This document shows, piece by piece, positions 7,439-64,000 of a stretch of 64,000 bases of DNA. Under the pieces are notes generated by a model. It was not told the origin of the DNA. It saw nothing but the letters and a program-made list of their open reading frames with translations, and ran no database searches. Numbering within the stretch: position 1 is the stretch's first letter; the number at the start of each line of letters is the position of its first letter. The translations under genes and the position numbers were made by a program. The DNA is from Mobula hypostoma (Eukaryota): positions 60,948,001 to 61,012,000 of the forward strand of contig NC_086108.1 in assembly GCF_963921235.1 (NCBI RefSeq). The letters are read 5' to 3'.

Positions 7439-10239
7439 GGCTAGTCTCAAAGGGATGCTTTCAATTCAGGGAAGATTGGGATTGCCGTCCCAAGTCAGGA
7501 ATCCCCCCACCTCCTGAAGTTTAAAATGAAACAGATGCCTGGGAAACAGTGGAGGCCTCAGGGGAGGAAAAACTTCAACCCAGGGCAGACTCAAACTCAG
7601 GCCAGAAACAAAAGGGCCTTCAAGTGGCACCACTTCCGAATCTTCCCTGGAATATCTATTCAGAGACTTTTTGTCTACCCAGCACAGGGCAGAAGATGCT
7701 TTTAAAAAGGAACTCCAAAGCCTGTGGAGGGGTCCCAAGATGCTTATCAACAAGGTGAAAATATTGGGAACTATCTCCTCAGGTTCGAGAGGAAGGCCCA
7801 GATATGGCAATGGCCCGAGGGAGGAGTGAGTCTGCTAGCTAGTGCTACTACTGACGGGTAAAGCTTTCAAAGCCTACACCGCAATGGATGAAGGTTCAAC
7901 AACTATATTGACCTGAAGGAGGCTGCTGACTAAATTTGATATCTTGACAGAAACCTATCATCAACACTTTCCTTCCAGTACACTACCACCCACTGAGATG
8001 TTTCATTGCCCGACGGGTCTCTACCACAGATAGATTTGACCACAGCAGATGCCTGAGGAGGAGATTGGGGAGGCCATTGTTCTGGAAGCTGCTGCAGGTT
8101 CTTCCTCCAGATGCCAGAACCCAGGTCTGAGAGCACGAGCCAGTGGATGGACATTGGTCCGACTTGCCCTGCAGTACCTGAATGACCACAAGGGGACAGC
8201 ATCACGACCATCATTCTGAAGCAACAGAGACTCTAACCCTCCATAGGACTCTCAGAGCAACTCTGTGGAACTGGGGAGTGGGAGAATGAGGACAAAGAAC
8301 CTTTGGTAGTTTTTTCTAAGACTTTTATTTGTTACCATTGTCAGCAGCCAGGTCATAAATCCTCTGTGTGTCCATTCAAGAAGCCCAATTTGTCAGGTAT
8401 GTGCTATGTACCAAGAAGTGGAGAATGTGATGATGATGATAATGACTGTAATGATGGTGATTATGGTAATGGAAACAAGCAGAATGTGAGGAGAAAGAGT
8501 CTTTATTTATTATAGTCAAAGTTAATGGAAAACCCATTAAAGCACCTTTAGATTCTGGTAACTCACTGCCATTCATTAAGAAAAATTATGCTCCTGCCTT
8601 TGGTGTTGACTGCAGTTACCAAACACCTATCCAATGTTTCCATGGTGACTGGAAGTCTGAGCCACTGACAGAACTCATTCTTGAGCCAGATGACCACAAG
8701 TACTTGTTGACAGTGGGGGTGCTGGAGAAACTATCAGTTGACATGGCTCTGGAGAGGGATTTGCCTGTTTTACATGAATTACTGAGGAAGGGAAATAGCC
8801 AATCACGTCCATCTGTTACTTTGAGAGTAGATAGTGCTGTTTCTTATTTTGTCATGACTCGTGTTGAAACCAAAGCAATGGACAGGTTACAAGCTCTGCC
8901 TGATTTGGATGCTAGTCTGTGCAAGGGAGGGACCAAAAGGCCTAGAAAGTCACACCAGCAATGGCACCTTGAGAAATACACCAGTATTCCTGCCTCTGTA
9001 CAATGGTGTACCCATTAAGGACAACTTGGAAGGGGTCGTGGAGGCCTGCAGGGTCCTGGGAACACTGACCTCTCCCATTTTGATGGCCGCCAACCAGTGG
9101 AGCTCTGGAAGGTGTTTGCTGACTTTCTACAGCTGTTCCAGCAGAGACCAGGACTAACAAAGGTCCTAAAACCTTCCGTCAGGATCAGACCTGAGCAGGG
9201 TTCAGTACGCCAACACTGCTACAGAGTGCCAGAGTGACTTGTGAGGTCCCTGAAGGATGAGATTCGAACCGTGCTGGAGCTGGGAGTCATCGAGCTTTCA
9301 AATAGTCAGTGGAGCTGTCCCCTCGTTATTGTCCACAAGAAGAATGGCACCCTGAGGGTATGCATTGATATCTGAAAGTTAAATGCCATTTCTTTTCTTG
9401 GTGCTTATGCACCACATTGATGACCTACTAGAAAGTACTGGACGGATTAACAACACTGGGCCTTTGCAAAGGCTACTGGCAGTTTCCCCTGGATGACCTA
9501 CCAGAACCCCTCTCTGCCTTCTGCACAACCCTTGGGGTCTGTTTCAGTTCACCGTGATGCCATTTGGTCTTCATGGTGCACCAGCAACTTTCCAGTGGCT
9601 GACGGACCAGGTGCTCCAATACCATGAGGACCACTGTGTGGCCTACCTAGGTGACGTAGTTATCTATAGCCAGACACGGTCAGAGCACTTGGGCCATCTG
9701 TATAGGATCCTGGGAGTTTTCCTGCTGTCGGTTCCACCCTCAATCTACAAAATTGTGAGTGGATGAAAAGGAAAACCAGATACCTTGGCTACCAGCTGGG
9801 AGATGGAGGGGATTGAGCACAGGTGGACAAAGTGGTAGCGACTGCAACAGTACTTGAACTCACACCAAGAAGGAAGTGAAGTGACGTGAAGTCCTTCCTG
9901 GGTCTGGTAGGGTGATATCGCAGGTTCATTTCCAAAATCAGTACTCTGGCCGCACCTCTGACTAATCTTACTGGGCAACCCCGTGATGTACAAAGTAGAC
10001 AAGTGAATGTGAAAACATTTTCCAAGCCCTTAAAGCTCAAAAATCTTCTTCACCAGTCCTTCAGAGCCCAGACTTTGATAAACTGTTCCTTTTCCAGGTG
10101 AATGCCTCAGGAGGAGGCATTAGAGCAGTGTTGGCCCAAGGAGAACCTGGAGAAGAGTGACCTGTCATTTACCAGAACTGAAAACTCCTCCCAAGGGAAA
10201 CCAGATATTCCACCATTATAAAATTAACCTGAACACTTC

Positions 10240-10470: not shown

Positions 10471-11119
10471 ACTTTTTAGTAATCCTTCACCCATTCTGCA
10501 TTTAATCCTATACCTTATAACACTATTATCCTATAATCAGTAGACATTTGGAAAAGTATGGTACCCCACCATAACTACCCAATAAATACCCGATAAACAT
10601 CCACCTGTCTGTAACCTCTCTGCACATTTGCTGCTCCATAGGTCACCCATAGAATACGTCCGGCAATGTATTGTTCCTTGTCCTATTTTTTGCTTCCAAT
10701 CAAACAGATTATTTTCTGATGCTTCCATGCCATGCTCTCTCTCCAGCACAATTACATTTTCCTTCATCATCTCTGCTAAGCCTCCCTCCTTCTTTCATTC
10801 CCTAGCCTTCCTTTTAAAGGAAATTTTGCTTCAGAGTGAAAAATACACTCCAAGGAGTTGTTTGGCACAAATCATCAGGCTAAATTGGGCAGGCTGTGAA
10901 CAGATCCAGCAGCTCAGGACAGGACCTGGCCTCCAGGATGTGTTGTGGACCATCAGAATTTCACTTCGCTTCCAACCTGGGACATCATGGCCCAGACTAT
11001 CGGCCTCTCTAACCATCACCATCAAACCAGCAGATTAACACTGACTTAGTGAAGATTGTAGGAGTAGCACCACACATACCTCAGAATGAGGGGTCAGTCT
11101 GGTGAAGCTGCAAGACAGG

Positions 11120-11348
11120 TGTGGTAAACCATGTATATATGTTGTAACTCGGTTACCTGTCTGGACACACCCCTCTGCTGACTGCCCCTGTGGCTCCTCC
11201 CACAGAATCCTGTATAAAGGTGTTCGCCTTACCCCTCCCCCTCAGTCCGGGGGCAGACACTCACTGTGGAGGTCGTATTGTACAGCGAATAAAAGCCTTT
11301 CAGTATTTTATCAAACCTCAGTCTTTTGGAGTAATTGAAGGTGCTTCA
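11120..11348 (+). repeat. 5' LTR
   Basis: Direct repeat of 15353-15581; TATAAA at 11213; AATAAA at 11288. Confidence 0.95.
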
Positions 11349-11374
11349 ATTTTATTCGCTGTATGTTTTAAAAC

Positions 11375-14300
11375 ATGGAACAGGCCCTGAGACCAGAAAA
11401 ATTAGACCTCAATCCGCAAACACCTGAAGCTGGAAACGCTTTCGAACTCTGGCTGGCCTGCTTCAAAGCGTATCTAGAGGAGATTAAAGCGACCGACCCC
11501 GTAGCGAAGCGCAGAGTTCTACTCTCCAGGGTCAGTCCACGGGTCTATTCGCTGATCAGAGACCAGCCGAACTACGACGGCGCAATGAACGCACTCAAAA
11601 AACAATACCTGCGGCCGATAAACAGCGTCTATGCTCAGCATCGCTTAGCGACACGGCAACAACGGTCCGGGGAATCGAGTGCTGAGTTTGTGCAGGCCCT
11701 ACAGACACTCGTGCGAGCCTGCAATTGCCAGGAGCTGACGACGGCGCAGCATGCAGAACTCCTAGTGAGAGACGCCTTCGTCACGGGGACCAGGTCAGTG
11801 TATGTGTGCCAGCGGCTGCTGGAAAAAGCCGATCTTACCCTAAGTTCGGCCATCGAGCTGGCTGATACGTTGGAGGCCGCTCTGCATAACTCCGAGGCTC
11901 TCCAGGCACGCGATCCCCCGATGGCCTCGTGAGCGCCACAGACCCCGCAACCTGCCGGCGAATCGACCTCGGCTGCAGCCAGTCGTGAGTCCGCGAAGTG
12001 CTACTTCTGCGGACTGGAGAAGCACCCCCGGAAACGCTGCCCGGCCCAACAAGCTACCTGCTCCAGCCGCGGAAAGAAGGGCCACTTCGCCAAGGTCTTT
12101 AAGTCAAAACCGCGAGCGGGATCGAGCAGCGCCGCGTGCGAGACGTGGGGGCCGCCATCTTCCCGGCACACTGCCACCACGTGCGAGACATGGGGGCCGC
12201 CATCTTCCCTGCACGCCGCCACCACGTGCAAGACATGGGGGCGGCCATCTTGGTCGACGCCACCTCCCACCGCCTATGACCAACGGGTGCTCACGGGCCA
12301 CCCCACCGCGCCGGACCAAGACAGCAACCCCACCCTGGCTTCCGTGACCCTCGACCAAAGCGCTCCCCACCAGCTCGCAAGGTCAATGATAGACATCCTG
12401 GTGGAGGGGTGCAGGACAAGCTGCCTGTTTGACACAGGCAGCACGGAGAGTTTTATCCACCCGGCCACGGTGCAGCATTGTGGACTCATGATACGGCCGG
12501 TAAGTCAGAGGGTCACCATGGCCTCCGGGTCGCATACAACAGACATCCGGGGAGGGGTTGTGTAGCGACGCTAGTGGTGCAGGGCACAGAATATCGGGAC
12601 TTTAAGTTACTGGTCTTGCCTCAACTGTGTGCCCCTGTGCTGTTGGGGTTGGACTTCCAGAGCCACCTGAAAAGCGTGACAATGGAGTATGATGGGCCCC
12701 TCCCACCAATTACTGTCATAAATCCCCAGTTTTGTAGAGATATGTCTCGTACCCTGCTACTGACCACACACACACACCGACCTGCGCATCCCACCCAACA
12801 CCATGCCAACTGCCACACTACCGACACCACTTGCGGCCTCTCCACCCTCAGGATCCCTCCCCCACCGCTGTTCACCAACCTGACCCCCGACTGTAAACCT
12901 GTGGCAACTAAAAGCAGGAGGTACAGCACGGGAGACAGAGCCTTCATTAAGTCGGAGGTGCAGCGACTGCTCAGGGAGGGGGTCATTGAGACAAGCACAA
13001 GTCCTTGGAGGGCGCAGGTGATCGTTGTTCGGAACGGGGAGAAGAATAGGATGGTCGTGGACTATAGCCAGACCATCAATAGGGTCATGCAGCTCGAAGC
13101 GTGCCCTCTACCCCGCATCGCGGATATGGTCAATCAGATAGCACAGTACAAGGTATACTCGACCATAGACCTAAAATCCGCCTACCATCAGCTCCCCATC
13201 CGCTGGGAGGACCGCCCTTACACTGCCTTCGAGGCGGACGGCAGGCTTTATCAATTCCTGCGCGTCCCCTTTGGTGTCACGAATGGTGTATCTGTCTTCC
13301 AGAGGGCAATGGACCGGATGGTGGACTAGTGCCAACTGAAGGCCACGTTCCCATATCTGGATAACATCACCATCTGCGGTCACCACCGGCAGGATCACGA
13401 CAACAACCTCCAAAAATTTCTCCAAGCGGCCAAATCTTTCAACCTCACCTATAACAAGTGTGTATTTGGGACCACCCGACTTGCTATCCTTGGGTGTGTC
13501 GTGGAGAATGGAGTCATTGGCCCTGACCCCGACCGTATGCGGCCCTTGTTGGAACTCCCTCTTCCCAATACCCTCAGTGCCCTCAAAATGTGCCTGGGCT
13601 TCTTTTCATATTACGCCCAATGGGTCTCTAACTATGCAGACAAGGCCCACCCCCTGGTCAAGTCCACCACATTCCCCCTCTCTGCCGAGGCCCACGCGGC
13701 CTTCAACCGCATAAAAGGGGACACGCCAAAGCAGCAATGCATGCGGTGGATGAGGCCATTCCCTTCCAAGTAGAGAGTGACGCCTCCGACTTTGCGCTGG
13801 CTGCCACCCTCAACCAGACAGGAAGACCAGTGGCGTTCTTCTCCCGAACCCTTCAAGGCCCTGAAATTCGGCACTCTGCGGTAGAGAAAGAGGCCCATAG
13901 TGGAAGCTATTAGGCACTGGAGGCACTATCTTGCCGGCAAAAGGTTCACCCTGCTAACTGACCAGCGCTCAATCGCATTCATGTTTAATAATCAGCAGCG
14001 GAGCAAAATCAAAAATGATAAAATTCTGAGGTGGAGAATTGAACTCTCCACCTACAACTATGACATCATGTACAGGCCTGGGAAGCTCAACGAGCCCTCC
14101 GATGCCCTATCCCGGGGAACATGCGCCAGCGCGCAGATCGACCGGCTATATGCCCTACATGTAGACCTTTGCCACCCGGGAGTTACCCGGATTTTCCACT
14201 TCGTGAAAGCCCGGAACCTGCCTTACTCCCTTGAGGAGATCAGGACGATGACCAGGGACTGCCAAGTCTGCGCAGAGTGCAAACCGCACTTCTACTGACC

Positions 14301-15284
14301 CAAAAAGGCACCACTCATCAAAGCCACCCGCCCCTTTGAGCGATTGAGTGTTGACTTTAAGGGCCCCCTTCCCTCCACCGACCGCAATGTGTACTTTCTT
14401 AATGTAATTGACGAGTACTCGCGGTTCCCCTTCGCCATCCCCTGCCCCGACACCACTACCACGTCAGTTATAAAAGCCCTGCGCAAGCTCTACACTCTGT
14501 TCGGATACCCATGCTATATCCACAGTGACAGAGGGTCCTCGTTTATGAGTGACGAGCTGCGCCAATATCTACTGGCTAGGGGAATTGCAACCAGTAGGAC
14601 CACGAGCTATAATCCCGGGGGAATGGACAGGTGGAGAAGGAGAATGGCACAGTGTGGAAAGCCACACTCTTAGCCCTCAGGTCAAAGGGACTGCCGGTCT
14701 CCCGCTGGCAGGAGGTCCTTCCTGAGGCACTCCACTCCATCCGCTCCCTGTTATGCACAGACACCAATGCCACCCCTCATGAGCGGCTCTTTTCTTTTCC
14801 CAGAAAGTCGACCACTGGAACCACCCTACCATCTTGGCTGACGTCTCTGGGGCCAGTGCTGCTCCAGAAACATGTGAGGAGCAATAAATACTCCCCGATA
14901 GTCGAGAGGGTTCACTTACTTCATGCGAACCCCCAGTATGCCTACGTGCTTTTACCTGATGGGCGGGAGGACACTGTCTCCATCCGCGACCTAGCGCCCG
15001 CAGGAGCACCGAGCCCCTACCCTGAACACTCTGTGGTGACTATTGACCCCGTACCCACCAATGTATGTACCTACGAGACACCGTGCACCCCAAACCCTAT
15101 ACAGACACCACACGACACTCCCACACCGGGCGCGACGCACACGCACGAGGGATTACCGACGCCTAACGCGCTGGCACCTGAAGTCAGGCCGGAGCCAGTA
15201 CAACCGCCATCGCTGGTGCAATCACCACTGGTGCTACGTAGATCACAGCGACGGACTCGACCGCCCGATAGACTTAACCTGTAA
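11375..15284 (+). pseudogene. gag-pol polyprotein with several stops and frameshifts
   Basis: Gag 11375-11932; zinc knuckles CYFCGLEKHPRKRC and TCSSRGKKGHFAK at ~12000-12100; LFDTGSTESF protease; RT (SPWRAQV, IDLKSAYHQ, PFGVTNG, YLDN); RNase H (SDASDF, LTDQR); integrase (HPGV..CQVC, SVDFKGP, HSDRGSSF, EKENGTVWK). Confidence 0.93.
12135..12252 (+). repeat. 45-bp tandem repeat (~2.6 units) between gag and protease
   Basis: CGTGC(G/A)AGAC.TGGGGGC.GCCATCTT starts at 12135, 12180 and 12225. Confidence 0.9.
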
Positions 15285-15352: not shown

Positions 15353-15581
15353 TGTGGTAAACCATATATATGTTGTAATTGGGTTACCTGTCTGGACACG
15401 CCCCTCTGCTGACTGCCCCTGTGGCTCCTCCCACAGATTCCTGAATAAAGGTGATTTCGTCTTGCCCCTCCTCCTCAGTCCAGGGGCAGACACTCACTGT
15501 GGAGGTCATATTGTACAGCGAATAAGCGCCTTTCAGTATTTTACTAAACCTCAGTCTTTTGGAGTAATTGAAGGTGCTTCA
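15353..15581 (+). repeat. 3' LTR
   Basis: Direct repeat of 11120-11348, preceded by a polypurine tract. Confidence 0.95.
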
Positions 15582-35257: not shown

Positions 35258-37410
35258 TAGTCATAGTCATACTTTATTAATCCCGGGGGAAATTGGTTTT
35301 CGTCACAGTTGCTCCATAAATAATAAATAGTAGTAGAACCATAAATAGTTAAATAGTAATATGTAAATTATGCCAGTAAATTATGAAATAAGTCCAGGAC
35401 CAGCCTATTGGCTCAGGGTGTCTGACCCTCCAAGGGAGGAGTTGTAAAGTTTGATGGCCACAGGCAGGAATGACTTCCTATGACGCTCAGTGCTACATCT
35501 CGGTGGAATGAATCTCTGGCTGAATGTACTCCTGTGCCCACCAAGTACATTATGTAGTGGATGGGAGACATTGACCAAGATGGCATGCAACTTAGACAGC
35601 ATCCTCTTTTTAGACACCACCGTGAGAGAGTCCAGTTCCATCCCCACAACATCACTGGCCTTACGAATGAGTTTGTTGATTCTGTTGGTGTCTGCCACCC
35701 TCAGCCTGCTGCCCCAGCACACAACAGCAAACATGATAGCACTGGCCACCACAGACTCGTAGAACATCCTCAGCATCGTCCGGCAGATGTTAAAGGACCT
35801 CAGTCTCCTCAGGAAATAGAGACGGCTCTGGCCCTTTTTGTAGACAGCCTCAGTGTTATTTGACCAGTCCAGTTTATTGTCAATTTGTATCCCTAGGTAT
35901 TTGTAATCCTCCACCATGTCCACACTGACCCCCTGGATGGAAACAGGGGTCACCGGTACCTTAGCTCTCCTCAGGTCTACCACCAGCTCCTTGGTCTTTT
36001 TCACATTAAGCTGCAGATAATTCTGCTCACACCATGTGACAAAATTTCCTACCGTAGCCCTGTACTCAGCCTCATCTCCCTTACTGATGTATCCAACTAT
36101 GGCAGAGTCATCCAAAAACTTATGAAGATGACAAGACTCCGTGCAGTAGTTGAAGTCCGAGGTGTAAATGGTGAAGAGAAAGGGAGACAAGATAGTCCCC
36201 TGTGGAGCCCCAGTGCTGCTGATCACTCTGTCGGACACACAGTGTTACAAGCACATGTACTGTGCTCTGCCAGTCAGGTAATCAAGAATCCATGATACCA
36301 GGGAAGCATCCACCTGCATCGCTGTCAGCTTCTCCCCCAGCAGAGCAGGGCGGATGGTGTTGAATGCACTGGAGAAGTCAAAAAACATGACCCTCACAGC
36401 GCTCGCTGGCTTGTCCAGGTGGGCGTAGACACGGTTTAGCAGGAAGACGATGGCGTCCTCAACTCCTAGTCGGGGCTGGTAGGCAAACTGGAAGGGATCT
36501 AAGTGTGGCCTGACCATAGGCCGGAGCAGCTCCAGAACAAGTCTCTCCAGGATCTTCATGATGTGGGAGGTCAATGCCACCGGTCTGTAGTTGTTGAGGC
36601 CACTGGGGCGCGGCGTCTTCGGCGCAGGGACGAGGCAGGACGTCTTCTGCAATACAGGAACCCTTCGGAGCCTCAGACTCAGGTTGAATACATGGCGAAG
36701 TACTCCACATAGCTGAGGGGCACAGGCTTTGAGCACCCTGGTACTGACACCATCCGGTCCTGCAGCCTTGCTTGGGTTGAGACGTTTCAGCTGTCTTCTC
36801 ACCTGTTCAGCTGTGAAGCCCACCGTGGTGGTTTCATGTGGGGAAGGGGTATAGTCATGAGAGCAGGGTGGGGGACTGTGAGGAGGGGTAGGAGGGGAGA
36901 GTGGAATATGTGTTGGTTGGGGGACGACAACAGATGGCTCATGTGTGGGATGGGCAGGGGCCACACTGTCAAATCTGTTAAAGAACAGGTTAAGTTCATT
37001 GGCCCTGTCCACACTGCCTTCCGCTCCTCTGTTGCTAGTTTGCCGGAACCCAGTGATGGTCCTCATCCCACTCCAGACCTCTCTCATGTTGTTCTGCTGG
37101 AGTTTCCACTCAAGCTTCCTCCTGTACCTGTCCTTAGCCTCCCTGATCCTGGCTTTCAGGTCCCTCTGTATTGCCCTCAGCTCCTCCCTATTTCCATCTC
37201 TAAACGCCCTCTTTTTAGCGTTTAGGATGTCCTTAATGTCCTTTGTCACCCATGGCTTGTTATTTGAATAACAAAAGACAGTTCTTGTTGGAACCTTGCA
37301 GTCCACACAGAAGTTGATATAATCGGTGGTGCACTCTGTGAGCCAATCAATATCCTCTCCATGTGGCTCACAGAGTGCCTGCCAGTCTGTCACCTCAAAA
37401 CAACCCTGGA
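35258..37410 (-). mobile_element. Young Rex1/Babar LINE, 5'-truncated, RT nearly intact
   Basis: ORFs 37393-36245 and 36238-35405 share one frame separated by a single TAA; YRPVALTS, FFDFSSAFNTI, GAPQGTILSP, KFLDDSA; (ATGACT) tail. Confidence 0.95.
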
Positions 37411-37764
37411 GAATCTGACTAGTAAAACAGATGGACAGAGCATTGATCAGACTAACTGGATCTCCTTAGCCATCGATCAGTTGCAAAGTTGGGCAAAGTA
37501 TTTGCAGATGGGTTGATGCACTTTGGTAAATCAGATAGGGGTAGGACATGCGCTCTATTAGTAAATGGTAAAACACAAAGGAATAGCTCCTTGAAAGTAG
37601 CAACCCAGGCTGATGGGATGGAGTCTAGAATTTTAAAAAATGGGATGTCATGTTGCAGCTTCACAAGATTGGTTTGATGTCTCAGTGTATTGTGTACAGT
37701 CCTGGTTGCCACACTACAGGAATGATGAGATTATACAGTACTGGAGAGAGAACAGAGGAGATTT

Positions 37765-42580: not shown

Positions 42581-45500
42581 ATCATTATTTAAATTTAATG
42601 ATGAACTGAATACATATTTTATATTCCCAAATACCTGTGTTTGCTTTGCTTCTAAGCAATGATTGCTGTGAACCCTGTCTCTCTTAGACTATGATATCAT
42701 TGCAATGGAGTTTGGTTGTTGTTATGGATCATTTGTTTTTAGTTATGTATATAGACCTGACCACAACTCCACATTCTTGGGAACTGAAATGTCCCCCTAG
42801 TGTAACAATGGGCAGTGAACAGCTTTTAAAAATACAATATCTTGAGATTTCATATTCAGTGTTTGTTAACAGGATACTGATTTGGGACTACTCACTTTTT
42901 TTCCTGAAGCAATGACAAAGTTGAATGAATTAAATTATTTATGTTAGTATGCCTTTCTCTGCCATGAGAAATGGTTCCACATGCAGACATGTATGAGCAG
43001 AATTCTCTTCACTAAATCCAACTGCTAATTAGATATTATTGCCAACAGGAAATCTGGTGGGACACTTAGTATATTGTCAATAATAGATAGTTTCACATTT
43101 AAGAAGCTCCCTATCTTTTGGGTGATCTGAGAACATTGATAACTTGGGATTTTAGCAGTTTCACTGTAGAGGATCTGAGGACAAAGTCCTATCTTAATTC
43201 AATACAGAGTTCCAAAACATTGTTCAAGGTTTAAAGTAAATATATTATCAAAGTACATATATGTCACCATATACAACCTTGAGATTCATTTTCTTGTGGG
43301 CATACTCAATAACTCCAATAACCATATAGAAGCAAAGAAAGACCGCACCGACCGAGTGGACAGCCATTGTGAAAACAATGACAACCTGCAAATACAAAAT
43401 AAAGAAAAACAAGTACTAGTAATAATAATAATAACCACTTTCTTAAATAACTACAATATACTTACAGAAAAGCAGAAAGGATGCCAAAAGGGTATGAAAG
43501 GATGTAAAGTACAACTTATAATAGATTCCATAATTCTAAATCAAGCCTGGCAGATAAGCAGAAATCTTTCATGTTGTTTTATTGACTACCAAAAGGCATT
43601 TGATTCTGTCCCACACTCATGGTTAATAGAAGTTCTTAATATATATAAACTACACCTAATGCTTGTCAAATTCCTACAACATCTGATGAAGCATTGGCAT
43701 AGTATAAACACTCTATCTATTAACAACAAGAAAAGAACAAACACAGTTATCAAAATAAACCGAGGCATTTTTCAAGGAGACTCTCTAAGTCCACTATGGT
43801 TTTGTCCAGATTTAAACCCAGGCTAAAATTGGGGATCAAATCAGAAACAATGAAATGAGCTATACCTTAACACACCTTTTATACATGGATGATTTGAAAG
43901 TATATGCTCCTTCATTAGTAAAGCTAAAGCAATTAATTCAAATAGTATAACTATTTTCCAAAGATATAAACATGAACTTTGGACTGGATAAATGCAGCAT
44001 TAAACAGAAAGAAAGATGCAATAGCACTAGTGGAATACAAAACAGAGCAGCAGGATAAAATACAATTGTTGATGAAAATGAAACACTAAGTATCTGCTAT
44101 ATCAACAAACAAAGAAAATAGATCACAGTGCAATGAAGGAAAAACTTTTGACAGAGTTTACGTCAAGGCTTAAGAAAATCTGCCAAACAAAGCTCAACAG
44201 TAAAAATATTACAGGCAATAAACACTTACACTATACATATATTAACGTATTCCTTTGGCATAATAATTTGGTCCAAAACAAAGAAAAATAAGAACTGAAA
44301 TGACAACTTTCAGAAAACATTATGTACACTCGAATGCATTTAGATTAACATTACCTAGAACGGAGGGGGGAAGAGAATAACAGGCATTAAGATTCTACAC
44401 AACAGTCAGATAAAACTTTTAAGGATATATTTTCATCAATGAAAACAGGATTCAGGACTCCTCTGATAAGAAGTATTCACCACGAAACTTAAGTGAGTGC
44501 ACAACCGAGAAAAATGAAGACATTATCACTACTGAAGAAAAAGTTACCCAATGGAAGACCATGGCCCGCCATGGAAGACATCCCCACGATCTGAGCAGAC
44601 TAGATGTCAACAAGGAAGCTTAGAATGCCTAGCTCAGAGCTGGAGGCATCTTCCCAGAAACTGAATGGTTCCTTGTGGCTATACTGGATCAGGTGGTTAA
44701 CACAAAAAAATGATCAAAAAAATATAATGAATACTAACAAATTCAAACCAGAAACAATCTGTCATAAGGGGGCGGGGTGCTGGTGGCAGACCCAAATGCA
44801 AGACACAGACACTGAAGTACTAGGAACAGGAATTGACTAGAGAGCGGGGACGAGAACATAGACTTGGGCTAGGACATTGGCTAGGCAAGAGGGACCAGGA
44901 CAAGGAACTGGGAACTAGGAGCCTGGGCTTGGACTCCGAGCCGGAGACTGGACAAGGACCCAGAACCCAGGTCTTGACCCATGCTCAGACCCCGGAACAA
45001 GGTGAGGACATGACATGGCTACAGGACTGGACATGGCTTGGGTTCTTCGAGGCGAGGTCATGACGAGGCTTGGGTTTGGACTCCAAGCCAGAGACTGGAC
45101 AAGAACCCAAAACCTGAGTCTTGACTCGGGCTTGGGCTCCGGAACTAGGCGAAGTCATGACGTGGTCTTGGGAGACAGGACTAGGCGAGGTTACAGGACA
45201 GAACAAAAGACTCCTGGGCAAGACAAGGGAACTCCAGCAAAGGACAAGGCACATGGACAGGACAAGAACACGAAGCCTTGACTTGGTACTCAGGAACAGC
45301 CGAGCCTTGGACTTGGGACGACAGGAACCGTGGAACCTTGGACTTGGGAAAACAGGAACGCAGAACACAGAGCCTTGGTCTTGGGGAGAACAGGAACACA
45401 GGGACATTGAACACAGAACCGGGACCCCTCCTTGGGAACAGGACTTAGGGCCGGGACCCGTACACGGAACACAGAGCCAAGACCCCTCCTTGGGAACAGG

Positions 45501-45829: not shown

Positions 45830-48637
45830 CAGGGTCCCCCGCTTTTCGAACATTTGCTGTACGAAACCTCGTGGTTACAAAAGACCTACATTAGTTACCT
45901 GTTTTCACTAACAGAAGGTGTTTTCACTGTTATGAGAAAAGGCAGCGCGCGATAAAAGGCAACGTATGCCCTGAGCAGCCAAGCTCTTCCCCTGGAACTG
46001 CATTCCAGCCGGCATTGCTTAAACACCTGCCTGTGAGTATCTGTGCTTTTATGTCAATTTATTTTGAGCATCCGTTAGCAAGATGAGTTCTAAGGTATCG
46101 GAAAAGCCTAAACGAGCTCGTAAGGGTGTTACACTTAGCGTAAAACTAGACATAATTAAGCGTTTCGATCGTGGTGAACGAAGAAAGGACAAAGTGAGTT
46201 TGGCTTGTGGAAGTTGACGAAGATGATGTTGAAGGGGTTTTGGCAACCCATGACCAAGGACTGATAGATGAAGAGCTGATGCAATTTGAAGAGGAAAGGA
46301 TAACAATTGGAACTGAATGCGGTAGCGAATTGACCGAAAGTGAAGTCGTCCAGGAACTGAACATGAAGCAACTGCATGAGATTTTCACTGCAATGATTGC
46401 AGAGAAGTACGACGTTAATCTTGAAAGGGTACATAGGTTTAGGGCATATTTGCAGGATGGTTTGAGTGCTTAAAAAGAACTGTATGTTAGAAAAATGCGC
46501 AAGGCTAAACAGTCAAGCATACTGTCATTTTTCAAGCCTTCCACATCAGCCACAGCAGATGACGAACCTCGACCTTCGACATCAAGGCAGGCAGACATAG
46601 AAGAAGATGACCTGCCTGCCCTGATGGAAACAGACGACGATGAGATGACACCCCAGTGTCCCACCACCACGACCCCCGGGCCTCAGACCGATACACAGAA
46701 ACACAGAAAATAGGTGCAGGAGTAGGCCATTCGGCCCTTCGAGCCTGCACCGCCATTTATTATGATCATGGCTGATCATCCAACTCAGAACCCCGCCCCA
46801 GCCTTCCCTCCATACCCCCTGACCCCCGTAGCCACAAGGGCCATATCTAACTCCCTCTTAAATATAGCCAATGAACTGGCCTCAACAGTTTCCTGTGGCA
46901 GAGAATTCCACAGATTCACCACTCTCTGTGTGAAGAAGTTTTTCCTAATCTCGGTCCTAAAAGGCTTCCCCTTTATCCACAAACTGTGACCCCTCGTTCT
47001 GGACTTCCCCAACATCGGGAACAATCTTCCTGGATCTAGCCTGTCCAATCCCTTTAGGATCTTATACGTTTCAATCAGATCCCCCCTCAATCTTCTAAAT
47101 TCCAACGAGTACAAGCCCAGTTCATCCAGTCTTTCTTCATATGAAAGTCCAGGAATCAATCTGGTGAACCTTCTTTGTACTCCCTCTATGGCAAAGATGT
47201 CTTTCCTCAGATTAGGGGACCAAATTTGCACACAATACTCCAGGTGTGGTCTCACCAAGGCCTTGTACAACTGCAGTAGTACCTCCCTGCTCCTGTACTC
47301 GAATCCTCTCGCTATAAATGCCAGCATACCATTCGCCCTTTTCACCGCCTGCTGTACCTGCATGCCCACTTTCAATGACTGGTGTATAATGACACCCAGG
47401 TCTCGTTGCACCTCCCCTTTTCCTAATCGGCCACCATTCAGATAATAATCTGTTTTCCTATTTTTGCCACCAAAGTGGATAAGTTCACATTTATCCACAT
47501 TAAATTGCATCTGCCATGAATTTGCCCACTCACCCAACCTATCCAAGTCACTCTGCATCCTCTTAGCATCCTCCTCACAGCTAACACTGTCACCCAGCTT
47601 CGTGTCATCCGCAAACTTGGAGATGCTGCATTTAATTCCCTCATCCAAGTCATTAATATATATTGTAAACAACTGGGGTCCCAGCACTGAGCCTTGTGGT
47701 ACCCCACTAGTCACCGCCTGCCATTCTGAAAAGGTCCCGTTTATTCCCACTCTTTGCTTCCTGTCTGCTAACCAATTCTCCATCCACATCAATATCTTAC
47801 CCCCAATACCGTATGCTTTAAGTTTGCACACTAATCTCCTCTGTGGGACCTTGTCAAAAGCCTTTTGAAAATCCAAATATACTACATCCACTGGTTCTCC
47901 CCTATCCACTCTGCTAGTTACATCAGATCAGAGGCGACGCAATCGGCAATTGCCTCTGATCTGGGCCGACATTTATGTGCTGGGCGGTACCTAATTTATT
48001 AGCTTGTTTATTTTGGCTTTTTTCATAAAGATGTGCTGGGTGCGTCCCAGCTACTGCTGCACCACTGCATGCTACGCGGATTGGTATCGGTTGGTGGATC
48101 GGAGGTTGGGGACCACTGCACCACCCCAACCTCCGACGACTCAGCCTAACACACCATCATCAGTGTGCTCGGCGCTGTCTTCCCGATTCCGGTCAGTGAT
48201 ACTACACTGTACATACATTATTTCTACTTTATATAGGCTGTGTATTTTTATGTGTTATCTTGTATGATTTGGCAGCTTCATAGCTTAACGGTTACCAGAG
48301 AGAGCGTTTCTGCCGAAAGCGCTTGCACCATGTTTCTGCCGAGACTGCTTGCATGAGATTTTCACTACGGTGGACAGTTCGGCAATGATTGTAGAAAAGA
48401 ATTTCTACTTTATATAGGCTGTGTATTTATCATATCATTCCTGCTTTTACTATATGTTACTGTTATTTTAGGTTTTATGTGTTATTTGGCATGATTTTGT
48501 AGGTTATTTTTGGGTCTGCAAACACTCACAAATTTTTTCCATATAAATAAATGATAATTGCTCCTTCACTTTACGACATTCCAGCTTACGAACCATTTAA
48601 TAGGAACGCACTACCTTCAGATGGAGGGGGAAACCTC
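45830..48637 (+). mobile_element. Internally deleted Tigger/pogo DNA transposon
   Basis: TA TSD at 45828-29 and 48638-39; imperfect TIRs CAGGGTCCCCC / GGGGGAAACCTC; N-terminal MSSKVSEKPKRARKGVTLSVKLDIIKRFDRGE (46083) joined to the acidic C-terminus with KQSSILSFFK; no DDD domain. Confidence 0.85.
46693..47923 (-). mobile_element. Young CR1 3' fragment with an open frame
   Basis: Open 374-aa ORF 47909-46785 (VYLDFQKAFDKV, GVPQGSVLGP, KFADDTKL); octamer-type tail. Confidence 0.96.
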
Positions 48638-57006: not shown

Positions 57007-59397
57007 ACCAGAGACACCACGCACCCCGACCACTCCCTGTTTGACCCGCTGCCGTCCAGCAAAAAGTTCAGGACACTAAAAGCCAGAACAAGTAGACTGA
57101 GGAACAGCTTCTATCCCAGAGCTGTGGCCTCCATCACGCCACTCCCACAGAATAATGACTGAAACTGTGAGCACACACATGCATACACAAGGACTCAAAT
57201 ACTTGCACTAACGGCACTTTGTGCATTACTGTGATATTCTGGTGCTGCTGCAACATATTTTCTGCTATTTATCTATTTAATACTGTTTTTCTATTACTGT
57301 CTTGTTTTTATCTACTGCTTTATTTAACTGCCTAAGAGGAAGCCAAACAGAGTTTCATTGTATCCTTGAATCCCTGCCCCCTGCTCCAAATGCGTGGCTG
57401 AGGGATTGGAGCAGGGGGCAGTGATTCAAGTTTTTCGATCATTGGGACCTCTTTTGGCGCAGGCGTGACCTGTACAAAAAGGACGGGTTACACTTGAATC
57501 CTAGGGGGACCAATATCCTGGCAGGGAGATTAGCGGGGGCTACTGAGGTGACTTTAAACTAGAATGGTTGGGGGGTGGGAATCAAATTAAAGAGGCTAGG
57601 CGTGAGGAGGTTAGTTCACAACAGGGGGATGGGAACCAGTGCAGAGAGACAGAGGGGTGTAAAGTGAGGGTAGAAGCAAAAAGTACTAAGGAGAAAAGTA
57701 AAAGTGGCAGGCCGACAAATCCAGGGCAAGCATTAAAAAGGGCCACTTTTCAACATAATTGTATAAGGGCTAAGAGAGTTGTAAAAGAGCTCCTGAAGGC
57801 TTTGTGTGTCAATGCAAGGAGCATTCGTAATAAGGTGGATGAATTGAAAGTGCAGATTGTTATTAATGATTATGATATAGTTGGGATCACAGAGACATGG
57901 CTCCAGGGTGACCAGGGATGGGAGCCTTTTTAAAAAAGGAGGGAGAGAGAAACCAGGGAATTATAGACCGGTTAGCCTAACGTCAGTGGTCGGGAAACTG
58001 CTGGAGTCAGTTATCAAGGATGTGATAACAGCACATTTGGAAAGCGGTGAAATGATCGGACAAAGTCAGCATGGATTTGTGAAAGGAAAATCATGTCTGA
58101 CGAATCTCATAGAATTTTTTGAGGATGTAACTAGTAGAGTGGATAGGGGAGAACCAGTGGATGTGGTATATTTGGATTTCAAAAGGCTTTTGACAAGGTC
58201 CCACACAGGAGATTAGTGTGCAAACTTAAAGCACATGGTATTGGGGGTAAGGTATTGGTGTGGGTGGAGAATTGGTTAGCAGACAGGAAGCAAAGAGTGG
58301 GAATAAACGGGACCTTTTCAGAATGGCAGGCGGTGACTAGTGGGGTACCGCAAGGCTCAGTGCTGGGACCCCAGTTGTTTACAATATATATTAATGACTT
58401 GGATGAGGGAATTAAATGCAGCATCTCCAAGTTTGCAGATGACACGAAGCTGGGTGACAGTGTTAGCTGTGAGGAGGATGCTAAGAGGATGCAGAGTGAC
58501 TTGGATAGGTTGGGTGAGTGGGCAAATTCATGGCAGATACAATTTAATGTGGATAAATGTGAAGTTATCCACTTTGGTGGCAAAAGTAGGAAAACAGATT
58601 ATTATCTGAATGGTGGTCGATTAGGAAAAGGGGAGGTGCAACAAGACCTGGGTGTCATTATACACCAGTCATTGAAAGTGGGCATGCAGGTACAGCAGGC
58701 GGTGAAAAATGCGAATGGTATGCTGGCATTTATAGCGAGAGGATTCGAGTACAGGAGCAGGGAGGTACTACTGCAGTTGTACAAGGCCTTGGTGAGACCA
58801 CACCTGGAGTACTGTGTGCAGTTTTGGTCCCCTAATCTGAGGAAAGACATCCTTGCCATAGAGGGAGTACAAAGAAGGTTCACCAGATTGATTCCTGGAC
58901 TTTCATATGAAGAAAGACTGGATGAACTGGGCTTGTACTCGTTGGAATTTAGAAGATTGAGGGGAGATCTGATTGAAATGTATAAAATCCTAAAGGGATT
59001 GGACAGGCTAGATGCAGGAAGATTGTTCCCGATGTTGGGGAAGTCCAGAACGAGGGGTCACAGTTTGAGGATAAAGGGGAAGCCTTTTAGGACCGAGATT
59101 AGGAAAAACTTCTTCACACAGAGAGTGGTGAATCTGTGGAATTCTCTGCCACAGGAAACAGTTGAGGCCAGTTCATTGGCTATATTTAAGAGGGAGTTAG
59201 ATATGGCCCTTGTGGCTATGGGGGTCAGGGGGTATGGAGGGAAGGCTGGGGCGGGGTTCTGAGTTGGATGATCAGCCATGATCATAATAAATGGTGGTGC
59301 AGGCTCAAAGGGCCGAATGGCCTACTCCTGCACCTATTTTCTATGTTTCTATGTTTCTATGTATAATGACAATGAGGATCATTCAATTCAATTCAAT
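57007..59397 (+). mobile_element. Rex1/Babar 3' fragment, split by a CR1
   Basis: DTTHPDHSLFDPLPSSKKFRTLKARTSRLRNSFYPRAV; the tail resumes at 59360-59397 with (CAATT)n. Confidence 0.8.
57364..59359 (+). mobile_element. Young CR1 with an internal deletion of most of the endonuclease
   Basis: ORF1 end (DLYKKDGLHLN), ORF2 start (NARSIRNK..GITETWL) fused at ~57925 to FKKGGREKPGNYRPVSLTS; open RT ORF 58216-59262; flanks TGTAT/TGTAT; (TTTCTATG)n tail. Confidence 0.93.
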
Positions 59398-62436: not shown

Positions 62437-62577
62437 GCAGTCCTGAAGAAGAGTCTTGGCCCAAAACTTCAACTGTTTGTCTGTTTGTTCACTTCCATGG
62501 AGGCTGCCTGACTTGCTGAGTTCTTGCATCATTTTCCGTGTGTTGCTCTGGATTTCCAGCGTCTGCAGAATTTCTTA
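62437..62577 (+). mobile_element. PLE pLTR remnant with decayed hammerhead
   Basis: CAGTCCTGAAGAAGAGTCTTGGCCCAAAAC...GGATTTCCAGCGTCTGCAGAATTTCTT. Confidence 0.7.
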
Positions 62578-62819
62578 AGCCTATGTTCTGTTAGGCTGAT
62601 GACACACTGCCACAGTCGATGGCACCTATCTCTCTGCAGTAAGCAACATTGCCTGCAGCAGTCTCTCTTCAAAGTTCCCCTTGTCTGGGTTTGATAACAT
62701 ATGACCACAGACATCCTTGCCTGGATGTTGTCTTTGATCCTTGCATTACCACAACTTCCACACTCCCTCCCGTAGAGGACAACATAAATCTTACTGAATT
62801 TCAATAGAGTCAAGTCTCT

Positions 62820-64000
62820 GAAACTTAGTGACAGTTTCATCATGGACAGTTGGCTGTTGATATCAGGGATGTACGTGCAACACTCCTGGCTAGTAATGGC
62901 ACAAGTACCACCTCTCTTAGACAACAGAAAGTCTAGTGCTAGTTGATTTTGAAGGTCCACAGTATTGATTGCCAGCATTTCAGCAGTAATGTCATTGATG
63001 GCCTGGCTCATATCATGTAGCAATAAGGTTGTATCATTAGCTAATTTCTCCAGCAGTGCTGAGGGCATGTTAATGCTTTCATGAGCCAGTCTGGCAGGCT
63101 CCCAGAACAGGAATACTACAGTCCAGAAACAGTAGGTTTCCATAGTCCTTCAGTGTCAGCTCCACATATTGGTTACTTAAAGTGGCAAAAAGCAAAGATC
63201 AAGAGTTTAGCCCTTCAGTCCTTTTTCAAGAAGGTTGTTCTGGCCCTGGTCCAGTAGCACTGCTGGCTTAACGCATGAAGTGTGTACCAGCATTGACTTT
63301 CCTTGGACATTTAAGGTGAATACTGTATGTGGTCAGCTACACTTGGAAAACACCTCCCCAGTGGGGATCTCGGCTGTTCTTTTGTTGGCAGGCTGTCAGC
63401 AGTATCCAATCTCCCAGCTGGTAGGCATGGCACTCTGCACACAGCGCAATCTTCTTGGATTTAATTACTTGTTGATAGAAACCTTTAAGAGCTTATATTA
63501 GTGCTATACAATAATGCAGCTTTCAGTAGTAAGGATGTTCATCTGTTTAATTAAAAGGCAACTAGCAAGTACATGGAAAGTCCCAAAACTATCTCATGTG
63601 AAGATAGACCTGTCACGTCATTTGGAGTGCAGCACATTGTCATGACAGCCTGTCAAAGTCCCCCTGGCCGCTTTAACTCCGTCCTGTTGTGCAATTAAGC
63701 TAACCTGCATTTCAAGGTCCCATTCTGTCTTTCAGCTGCCCCGTAAGACTAGAACAGTAAGGGCAGGTGAAATGATAACATTGAATATTGGTGTTTTGCA
63801 TGTTTTTGTGAGTGTAGACCGTTATCACTTGAGATTTTCTCTGGAATCCCAAACCTGGGAATACATTCTCATAATAAAAATTACCAGCAGTTTCAGCACC
63901 ATTTCTCTGAGTTGGATAAACTTTTAGCCATGCATTATCACAACCCGTACATTGAGGTAACTGTATAAAGTCTATTTGGAGATGTACAGACAGCCTCCTG
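62820..64000 (-). mobile_element. Endogenous retrovirus remnant (class I, gamma/epsilon-like): integrase plus env TM
   Basis: IN: LQIDFIQLP, IPRFGIPEKISSDNG, AERQNGTLK, TGLSSHEIV, GDWILL..PHWGGVFQV, VQGKSMLVHTS. TM: LQNQLALDFLLSKRGGTCAITSQECCTYIPD (immunosuppressive domain plus CX6CC). Confidence 0.9.

What the first reader, a model, noticed from the sequence alone, without database searches (positions are those of the whole stretch)
11281..11363. Gypsy element with no tRNA PBS: the PBS position is a perfect 14-nt complement of its own LTR poly(A)-signal region
Seen: the 5' LTR ends at 11348 and is not followed by TGG. Instead TTTTATTCGCTGTA (11350-11363) is the exact reverse complement of TACAGCGAATAAAA (11281-11294) in the LTR, which contains AATAAA. 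The gag ATG follows at 11375. Known: Tf1/sushi-group elements self-prime by annealing the RNA 5' end to the PBS, and retroviral hairpins can occlude the 5' poly(A) signal. Inference: this is tRNA-independent self-priming in a lineage with Mag-like double knuckles and no visible chromodomain, and/or a hairpin that hides AATAAA only in the 5' LTR. TATAAA at 11213 would put the start site about 40 nt upstream of the pairing segment, unlike Tf1.
Basis: partly seen in the sequence, partly recalled or inferred. Interest (0 to 1): 0.72.

Follow-up and report, generated by a model that had tools for sequence, protein, structure and literature searches.

The report
Self-priming signature in animal Gypsy retrotransposons
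This decayed jumping gene in a ray genome, like about twenty distantly related families, has no tRNA docking site; the spot where DNA copying starts pairs with a stretch of the element's own end-repeat, so the group likely primes itself with its own RNA, a trick otherwise known from a different branch of these elements.

Summary
Observation confirmed. 11350-11363 is the exact reverse complement of 11281-11294, one base after the 5' LTR (11120-11348), with no TGG. The element is a broken copy of a high-copy ray Gypsy family. The pairing is conserved, not the sequence. Ray subfamilies show compensatory changes. In 22 family representatives (2 ray, 20 metagenomic) the primer site pairs with its own LTR over 13-20 bp; own LTR is the best partner in 21 of 22. 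The RT forms its own clade (100/100), apart from chromoviruses and Mag-type elements; which is its sister is unresolved, so 'Mag-like' is unproven. Best reading: Tf1-like self-priming, with a cut predicted after the arm's final A-run, where a second helix begins (inferred; no RNA ends were mapped). Poly(A) masking cannot be the whole reason: 10 of 22 arms lack AATAAA/ATTAAA. The ray's own chromoviruses start their arm about 31 nt after TATA; this element's arm starts about 67 nt after, supporting an internal primer. The tRNA screen was incomplete. Nine literature searches found no description of this lineage's priming. The scan reported this clade before on other DNA, including this genome.

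The parts
11120..11348 (+). 5' LTR (229 bp, TG...CA)
   Evidence: sibling copies share the boundaries
11213..11218 (+). TATA box (GTATAAA in 70 of 117 copies, GAATAAA in 42)
11242..11247 (+). Initiator-like TCAGTC, A at 11244, 31 nt after TATA: predicted transcription start
   Evidence: CTCAGTC in 102 of 117 copies; start site inferred from recalled TATA-Inr spacing
11280..11294 (+). LTR arm, the predicted self-primer; includes AATAAA at 11288-11293
11295..11344 (+). Second helix stacked on the arm:PBS helix (starts GCC, pairs with the U5 GGT region); the predicted cut lies between 11294 and 11295
   Evidence: fold; RCC after the arm in most families; mean helix 4.3 bp against 2.9 shuffled
11335..11349 (+). 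Alternative U5-terminal hairpin (5 bp) with one compensatory change between subfamilies
   Evidence: 11339/11345 is A:T in 79 and T:A in 35 of 117 copies
11350..11364 (+). Primer-binding site, complementary to the LTR arm
11375..15284 (+). gag-pol (Gag with double zinc knuckle, PR, RT, RH, IN; no chromodomain), broken by stops and frameshifts in this copy
   Evidence: full-length relatives are single ORFs of about 1200 aa
15335..15350 (+). Polypurine tract, followed by AA and the 3' LTR
   Evidence: AA|TG at this junction in most metagenomic relatives shown
15353..15581 (+). 3' LTR

Best explanation
This is a decayed copy of an animal-wide Ty3/Gypsy lineage whose primer-binding site pairs with a 13-20 nt arm of its own LTR, and which likely primes reverse transcription with that arm instead of a tRNA. 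Shown: the pairing, its covariation, the fixed geometry (LTR-CA, one base, T-rich site; arm ending in an A-run followed by RCC; loop 24-70 nt) and a separate RT clade. Inferred by analogy with Tf1: the 5' leader folds back, the arm:PBS helix stacks on a second U5 helix, the element's RNase H cuts between the arm and RCC (11294/11295), and the new 3' end primes minus-strand DNA across U5. First-strand transfer would then use only the short stretch between the cut and the poly(A) site. In the ray the transcript is predicted to start at 11244, so the primer would be a capped piece of about 51 nt paired only at its 3' end. Hiding the 5' AATAAA is a possible bonus in about half of the families.
For: Ray copies (115 counted of 120 loci; 3 duplicates and 2 incomplete arms dropped): site 11284/11360 is A:T in 78, T:A in 36, unpaired in 1; site 11287/11357 is G:C in 70, T:A in 27. 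96.7% of cells paired and covariation score 0.130 against 0.046 shuffled, 0 of 500 (19 hand-picked copies, relatedness not controlled). 22 family representatives: Watson-Crick pairs in 20-22 of 22 at each of positions 1-13, with up to five pair types per position; own score mean 14.0 against cross-family 6.7; own LTR best in 21 of 22; 0-1 of 200 shuffles reach the observed score. L105 carries a compensatory change in both LTR arms and in the PBS at about 1% divergence from its siblings. Same-genome controls: Mag-type elements have TGG right after the LTR (7 of 12 loci); chromoviruses (Chromo confirmed) show the Tf1/sushi layout. The Tf1 mechanism is as stated in PMC7175516 and PMC4600332 (passages).
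Against: No RNA 5' end, cut site, poly(A) site or cDNA end was observed. The host tRNA set retrieved was too small to exclude a tRNA fragment directly. The predicted start lies 36 nt upstream of the arm, unlike Tf1, and most non-ray families have no TATA-like box within 110 nt upstream of the arm, so the start is not general. Mixed arm/PBS copies are symmetric (3 and 3 at 11287/11357), so the expected 'arm changes first, PBS follows' order was not seen. PBS position 14 in the L091 family is polymorphic and not corrected to the arm in 5 copies. The second helix is short or absent in some families (2-3 bp in 7 of 22). The 22 representatives were chosen because a junction with pairing was visible, and several are close kin (L098/L099/L100/L102; L124/L170; L032/L176).
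Confidence: 0.63

Rival explanations
1. Self-priming, but the primer comes from the copy of the arm in the 3' LTR or from the second packaged RNA, not from the 5' leader in cis.
For: If transcription starts at 11244 the arm lies in R and is present at both RNA ends. In 12 of 22 families it overlaps the poly(A) hexamer, so every polyadenylated RNA carries it near its 3' end.
Against: The short loop and the stacked second helix favour a local 5' fold. In the ray the second helix needs sequence about 50 nt past AATAAA, which a normally cleaved 3' end would lack (inference).
Confidence: 0.15
2. The helix exists mainly to hide the 5' poly(A) signal or for another RNA-structural role, and priming uses something else.
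For: The fold buries AATAAA fully at the 5' end only. 12 of 22 arms contain AATAAA or ATTAAA.
Against: 10 of 22 arms lack a canonical hexamer and pair just as well; L095, L099 and L102 have theirs in the loop. The 3' strand of the helix always starts one or two bases after the LTR end, exactly where a primer must end, and no other primer site is visible.
Confidence: 0.1
3. A host tRNA fragment or other small RNA that happens to resemble the arm is the primer.
For: The sites share a loose AU-rich pattern, and 27 of 462 cross-family scores reach 10 or more. Anticodon-loop tRNA priming exists in Copia (PMC10886601, PMC6317226, passages). The tRNA screen was incomplete.
Against: The site changes with each family's own LTR, even between ray subfamilies in one host and within a 1%-diverged family. 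No Rfam match over 11100-11420 at E up to 5. Best match to the spliceless Lys and Cys tRNAs retrieved was 5 nt.
Confidence: 0.05
4. Chance complementarity in one decayed copy.
For: 4 of 1272 control windows reach 14 nt or more.
Against: Conserved with compensatory changes across ray subfamilies and about 20 other families.
Confidence: 0.01

Closest known systems
Tf1/Tf2 (S. pombe), Tj1 (S. japonicus) and the Tf1/sushi chromoviruses, incl. plant Tcn1
   Same: No tRNA site; the PBS is complementary to the element's own 5' LTR; Ty3/Gypsy gene order; a second U5 helix next to the primer duplex (Tf1's U5-IR-like structure known to me from a paper title and from recall).
   Different: No chromodomain or Tf2-type SH3 hit; RT in a separate clade with 28-37% identity to ray chromoviruses; arm 13-20 nt rather than 11; loop 24-70 nt against about 180 nt in ray chromoviruses; arm predicted to be internal (TATA+67) rather than the first bases of the RNA (TATA+31); arm often contains the poly(A) hexamer.
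Mag lineage (A, B, C clades; SURL)
   Same: Double zinc knuckle in Gag, short LTRs, 5-bp TSD, compact size.
   Different: Mag elements are tRNA-primed (Leu, Ser, Arg in Culex, PMC3286476 passages; TGG in ray Mag-type loci). The RT lies outside the Mag-type group in the best tree; a sister link is weak (79/81).
TAR lineage of plant Ty1/copia (Houba, Osr-1)
   Same: Self-priming predicted from LTR-PBS complementarity outside the chromoviruses (PMC6317226, passages).
   Different: Copia superfamily, plants.
Retroviral 5' poly(A) hairpin (HIV-1; recalled)
   Same: AAUAAA buried in a helix at the 5' end.
   Different: There the primer is a tRNA and the hairpin is a separate element; here the masking strand is the primer site itself.

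Membership tests
Ty3/Gypsy LTR retrotransposon | LTR pair, TSD, PPT, gag-PR-RT-RH-IN order | tested here: met
   (best solved relative of P0025 is Ty3 Gag-Pol)
Tf1/sushi chromoviruses | Chromodomain at the integrase C-terminus | tested here: not met
   No Chromo hit in the window's C-terminal ORF or in five relatives; hit in ray chromoviruses
Tf1/sushi chromoviruses | RT falls inside the chromovirus clade | tested here: not met
   Two separate clades, each 100/100; only ray chromoviruses sampled, no fungal ones; a sister relation is not rejected (p-AU 0.156)
Tf1/sushi chromoviruses | PBS complementary to own 5' LTR, no tRNA site | tested here: met
Tf1/sushi chromoviruses | Primer is the first bases of the transcript | tested here: inconclusive
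   TATA/Inr place the ray start 36 nt upstream of the arm; no RNA end data
Tf1/sushi chromoviruses | RNase H cleavage releases the primer | not testable with these tools
   needs RNA end mapping or biochemistry
Mag lineage | Double zinc knuckle in Gag | tested here: met
   the same knuckle retrieved Mag-type proteins P0218 and P0159, labelled Mag from recalled motifs
Mag lineage | RT inside the Mag clade | tested here: inconclusive
   Outside the Mag-type group in the best tree; grouping with it 79/81; nesting with the five B/C-type rows not rejected, p-AU 0.156; no named reference elements were available
Mag lineage | tRNA-type PBS starting TGG | tested here: not met
   met in ray Mag-type loci

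The most novel reading that the evidence does not exclude
Self-priming arose independently in a large, animal-wide, non-chromovirus Gypsy lineage, and works differently from Tf1: the primer is an internal arm cut from a longer capped leader, and in many families it is the poly(A) signal itself, so one helix both masks the 5' poly(A) site and supplies the primer, with the PBS re-copied from the arm in each cycle.
Probability: 0.3. Interest if true: 0.72.

Novelty: new variant of a known kind. Interest (0 to 1): 0.55.

Why it matters
In the papers I read, tRNA-independent priming among Ty3/Gypsy elements is tied to the Tf1/sushi chromoviruses. A second, widespread animal lineage (named relatives in rays, a catshark, moths and butterflies, a damselfly, crustaceans, a sea anemone and a nematode) would suggest that self-priming arose more than once or is older than thought, which bears on whether hairpin priming preceded tRNA priming (raised in PMC3601003). 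Such elements would also escape silencing by tRNA fragments (inference) and be missed by LTR annotators that require a tRNA site. The predicted cut site is precise and easy to test.

Tried and rejected
RNA evidence: no RNA holder listed; runs were contigs only, with RNA status a guess, and gave no usable start, end or poly(A) site. One deep contig starting at 11239 and others at 11240-11241 fit the predicted start, but a polymorphic site there could explain it equally well; not used as evidence. tRNA screen: Rfam RF00005 plus 20 fetched stretches gave only Lys and Cys tRNAs and two long-intron calls, and the positive control (a TGG-type PBS in L097) found no match either, so the screen is uninformative. 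Viral-contig scan: nothing. Direction of PBS correction: symmetric, inconclusive. Naming the clade: motif searches in full text and in the supplements of PMC6238403 found nothing (one supplement is a scan and was not searched), so it may be one of the MolGy clades or an unnamed Repbase group. The ESM Atlas gave only unnamed or generic Gag clusters. The last homologue search on the knuckle returned only this lineage. Metagenome loci L110, L122, L141, L155, L156, L160, L161 showed no pairing but have no LTR pair or too little upstream DNA, so they were set aside as untestable. The automatic gag-start finder mis-registered several loci; the positions were used for those. The 63-row careful tree did not finish; the quick tree and a 24-row careful tree were used; L129, L176 and L306 were left out as too short.

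Full report
Observation. The sequence is as described. The 5' LTR runs 11120-11348 and the 3' LTR 15353-15581 (213 identical, 14 mismatched, 4 gap columns), with TSD ACAGG/ACAAG. After the LTR come one A and TTTTATTCGCTGTA, the exact complement of 11281-11294. None of 2000 shuffles exceeded 10 nt; 4 of 1272 control windows reached 14 or more. The internal region encodes Gag, protease, RT, RNase H and integrase in Gypsy order, broken by stops and frameshifts, with no chromodomain. Gag is 91-92% identical to Mobula proteins, so the host is a ray. The family is high-copy: 2013 and 3246 first-look candidates.

Covariation in the ray genome. I examined 120 loci from four searches, all top hits and so biased towards the queries; 3 duplicates and 2 incomplete arms were dropped, leaving 115. 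Three arm/PBS variants occur. At 11284/11360 the pair is A:T in 78, T:A in 36 and unpaired in 1. At 11287/11357 it is G:C in 70 and T:A in 27, with 3 + 3 mixed copies and 12 that look like CpG decay. All 14 positions pair in 68 copies, 13 in 32, 12 or fewer in 15. On 19 chosen copies 96.7% of cells pair, the covariation score is 0.130 against 0.046 shuffled (0 of 500), and slid structures pair 27-46%; the count of pairs with a double change (4) is reached by 87 of 500 shuffles, and relatedness is not controlled. A U5-terminal hairpin also shows one compensatory change (79 A:T, 35 T:A of 117). The mixed copies are symmetric, so they give no order of change.

Distant relatives. The metagenome scan confirmed 490 relatives and kept 80 loci. 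A gag start was located automatically in 43 of 80, some out of register; 36 were examined for LTR pairs. Twenty metagenomic representatives with a visible LTR-gag junction, plus two ray variants, were scored. Each PBS pairs with its own LTR over 13-20 bp with a 24-70 nt loop. Positions 1-13 are Watson-Crick in 20-22 of 22, with several pair types. The own-LTR score averages 14.0 against 6.7 across families, is the row maximum in 21 of 22, and is reached by 0-1 of 200 shuffles. Three more families show it on inspection (L151; L118 and L150 across contig ends). Seven loci without pairing lack an LTR pair or enough upstream DNA and could not be tested. The representatives were chosen for showing the junction and some are close kin, so 22 overstates the independent cases. 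L105 has the same substitution in both LTR arms and the matching change in the PBS while only about 1% diverged from its siblings, as expected if the PBS is re-copied from the primer or strongly selected. Against a simple copying model, PBS position 14 in the L091 family mismatches the arm in 5 copies.

Geometry. In most families the LTR ends CA, one base follows, the PBS starts TTT or TTA, the arm ends in an A-run and is followed by ACC or GCC. That triplet starts a second helix (mean 4.3 bp against 2.9 shuffled; individually weak, 2-3 bp in 7 of 22). The ray leader folds with the arm:PBS helix stacked on this second helix (z -2.2 to -2.8). This resembles the Tf1 arrangement: first 11 bases pair with the PBS and RNase H cuts between bases 11 and 12 (PMC7175516, passages; PMC4600332, passages). 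The U5-IR-like requirement I have only from a paper title in those reference lists and from recall.

Poly(A) signal. AATAAA or ATTAAA lies in the arm in 12 of 22 and not in 10; L095, L099 and L102 carry one in the loop instead. Masking therefore cannot explain the pairing in general, though it may be a second role.

Start site. The ray LTR has a TATA or AATAAA box at 11213 and TCAGTC with its A at 11244 (102 of 117 copies), 36 nt before the arm. As a same-genome control I retrieved chromoviruses (SH3_Tf2-1 plus Chromo): their 10-11 nt arm pairs with the PBS and starts about 31 nt after a TATA-like box, the Tf1 layout. So this element's arm is predicted to be internal. Only 3 of the 20 non-ray families show a TATA-like box within 110 nt upstream of the arm, at differing distances, so this is not shown for the lineage. 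Public runs were contigs only and did not settle it.

Placement. Relatives are single ORFs of about 1200 aa, 1273 hits among the 7981 candidates scored, with named hosts across several animal phyla. In RT trees the lineage is one clade (100/100), apart from ray chromoviruses (100/100), Mag-type rows and a Gmr1/Osvaldo-like group. The best tree puts it beside the Mag-type rows at 79/81; grouping with chromoviruses is not rejected (p-AU 0.156). The trees are unrooted, use 224 columns, and hold no named reference elements; the Mag and Gmr1/Osvaldo labels rest on recalled motifs. Independent origin is therefore plausible but not shown. Ray Mag-type elements have TGG after the LTR (7 of 12 loci), as do Culex Mag elements by tRNA assignment (PMC3286476, passages).

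tRNA test. Incomplete: only Lys and Cys tRNAs were recovered and the positive control failed. The argument against an outside primer is that the site tracks each element's own LTR. Rfam found nothing over the leader.

Literature. Nine searches of the open library found no description of self-priming in a non-chromovirus animal Gypsy lineage. I saw passages only of PMC6317226 (self-priming in Tf1/sushi, Tcn1 and Copia TAR), PMC3601003, PMC6934838, PMC6238403 (plus a supplement search, one scanned file unread), PMC2774666, PMC8220671, PMC4600332, PMC7175516, PMC3286476, PMC5341516, PMC10886601 and PMC2864245. The Levin, Lin and Butler papers were seen as reference titles only. Subscription papers and Repbase reports were not searchable and may already note this. 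The scan's own notes report what appears to be the same clade several times, twice in this genome; I consulted them after reaching my reading.

Verdict. A real, conserved and covarying primer-site helix in a large animal Gypsy lineage outside the chromoviruses. It most likely works like Tf1 self-priming but is not a Tf1/sushi member. New variant of a known kind; mechanism inferred, not shown. Interest 0.55.

Noticed in passing
window 11120-11348 against 15353-15581: The two LTRs differ by about 6%, while the 5' LTR region is 98-99% identical to sibling copies; the 3' LTR carries the older-type GAATAAA box. This suggests gene conversion or recombination between subfamilies.
   Followed up: partly
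window 11239-11348 (run X1 record 3): A very deep 2584-nt contig starts at the predicted start region of an older-type LTR and runs through the LTR end into unrelated sequence; possibly a host transcript driven by a solo LTR. RNA status is a guess.
   Followed up: no
window 62529-63149 (-): Fragment of a retroviral env-like ORF (Pfam TLV_coat, E 1e-6).
   Followed up: no
window 8470-10026 (+): Decayed fragments of a second, unrelated Gypsy element (protease and RT pieces).
   Followed up: no
window 35405-37465, 43179-43826, 46785-47927, 58147-59262: Long ORF remnants that look like non-LTR retrotransposon RTs (labelled by eye).
   Followed up: no
L281-L292 (G000): The ray genome holds abundant sushi-like chromoviruses whose 11-nt arm and PBS appear to covary between subfamilies.
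   Followed up: partly
L298-L307 (G000): Elements with an Integrase_p58_C domain and long ORFs have post-LTR sequence such as TAAGTGGGG or AAATTGGGG, with TGG set 4 nt from the LTR end; primer not examined.
   Followed up: no
L097, L113, L116: Nested insertions between this lineage and other Gypsy elements, two of them with a TGG-type site.
   Followed up: partly
L003:2798-2900 (-): A second, inverted copy of the LTR-PBS junction about 1 kb from the first, with a shorter PBS-to-ATG spacer.
   Followed up: no
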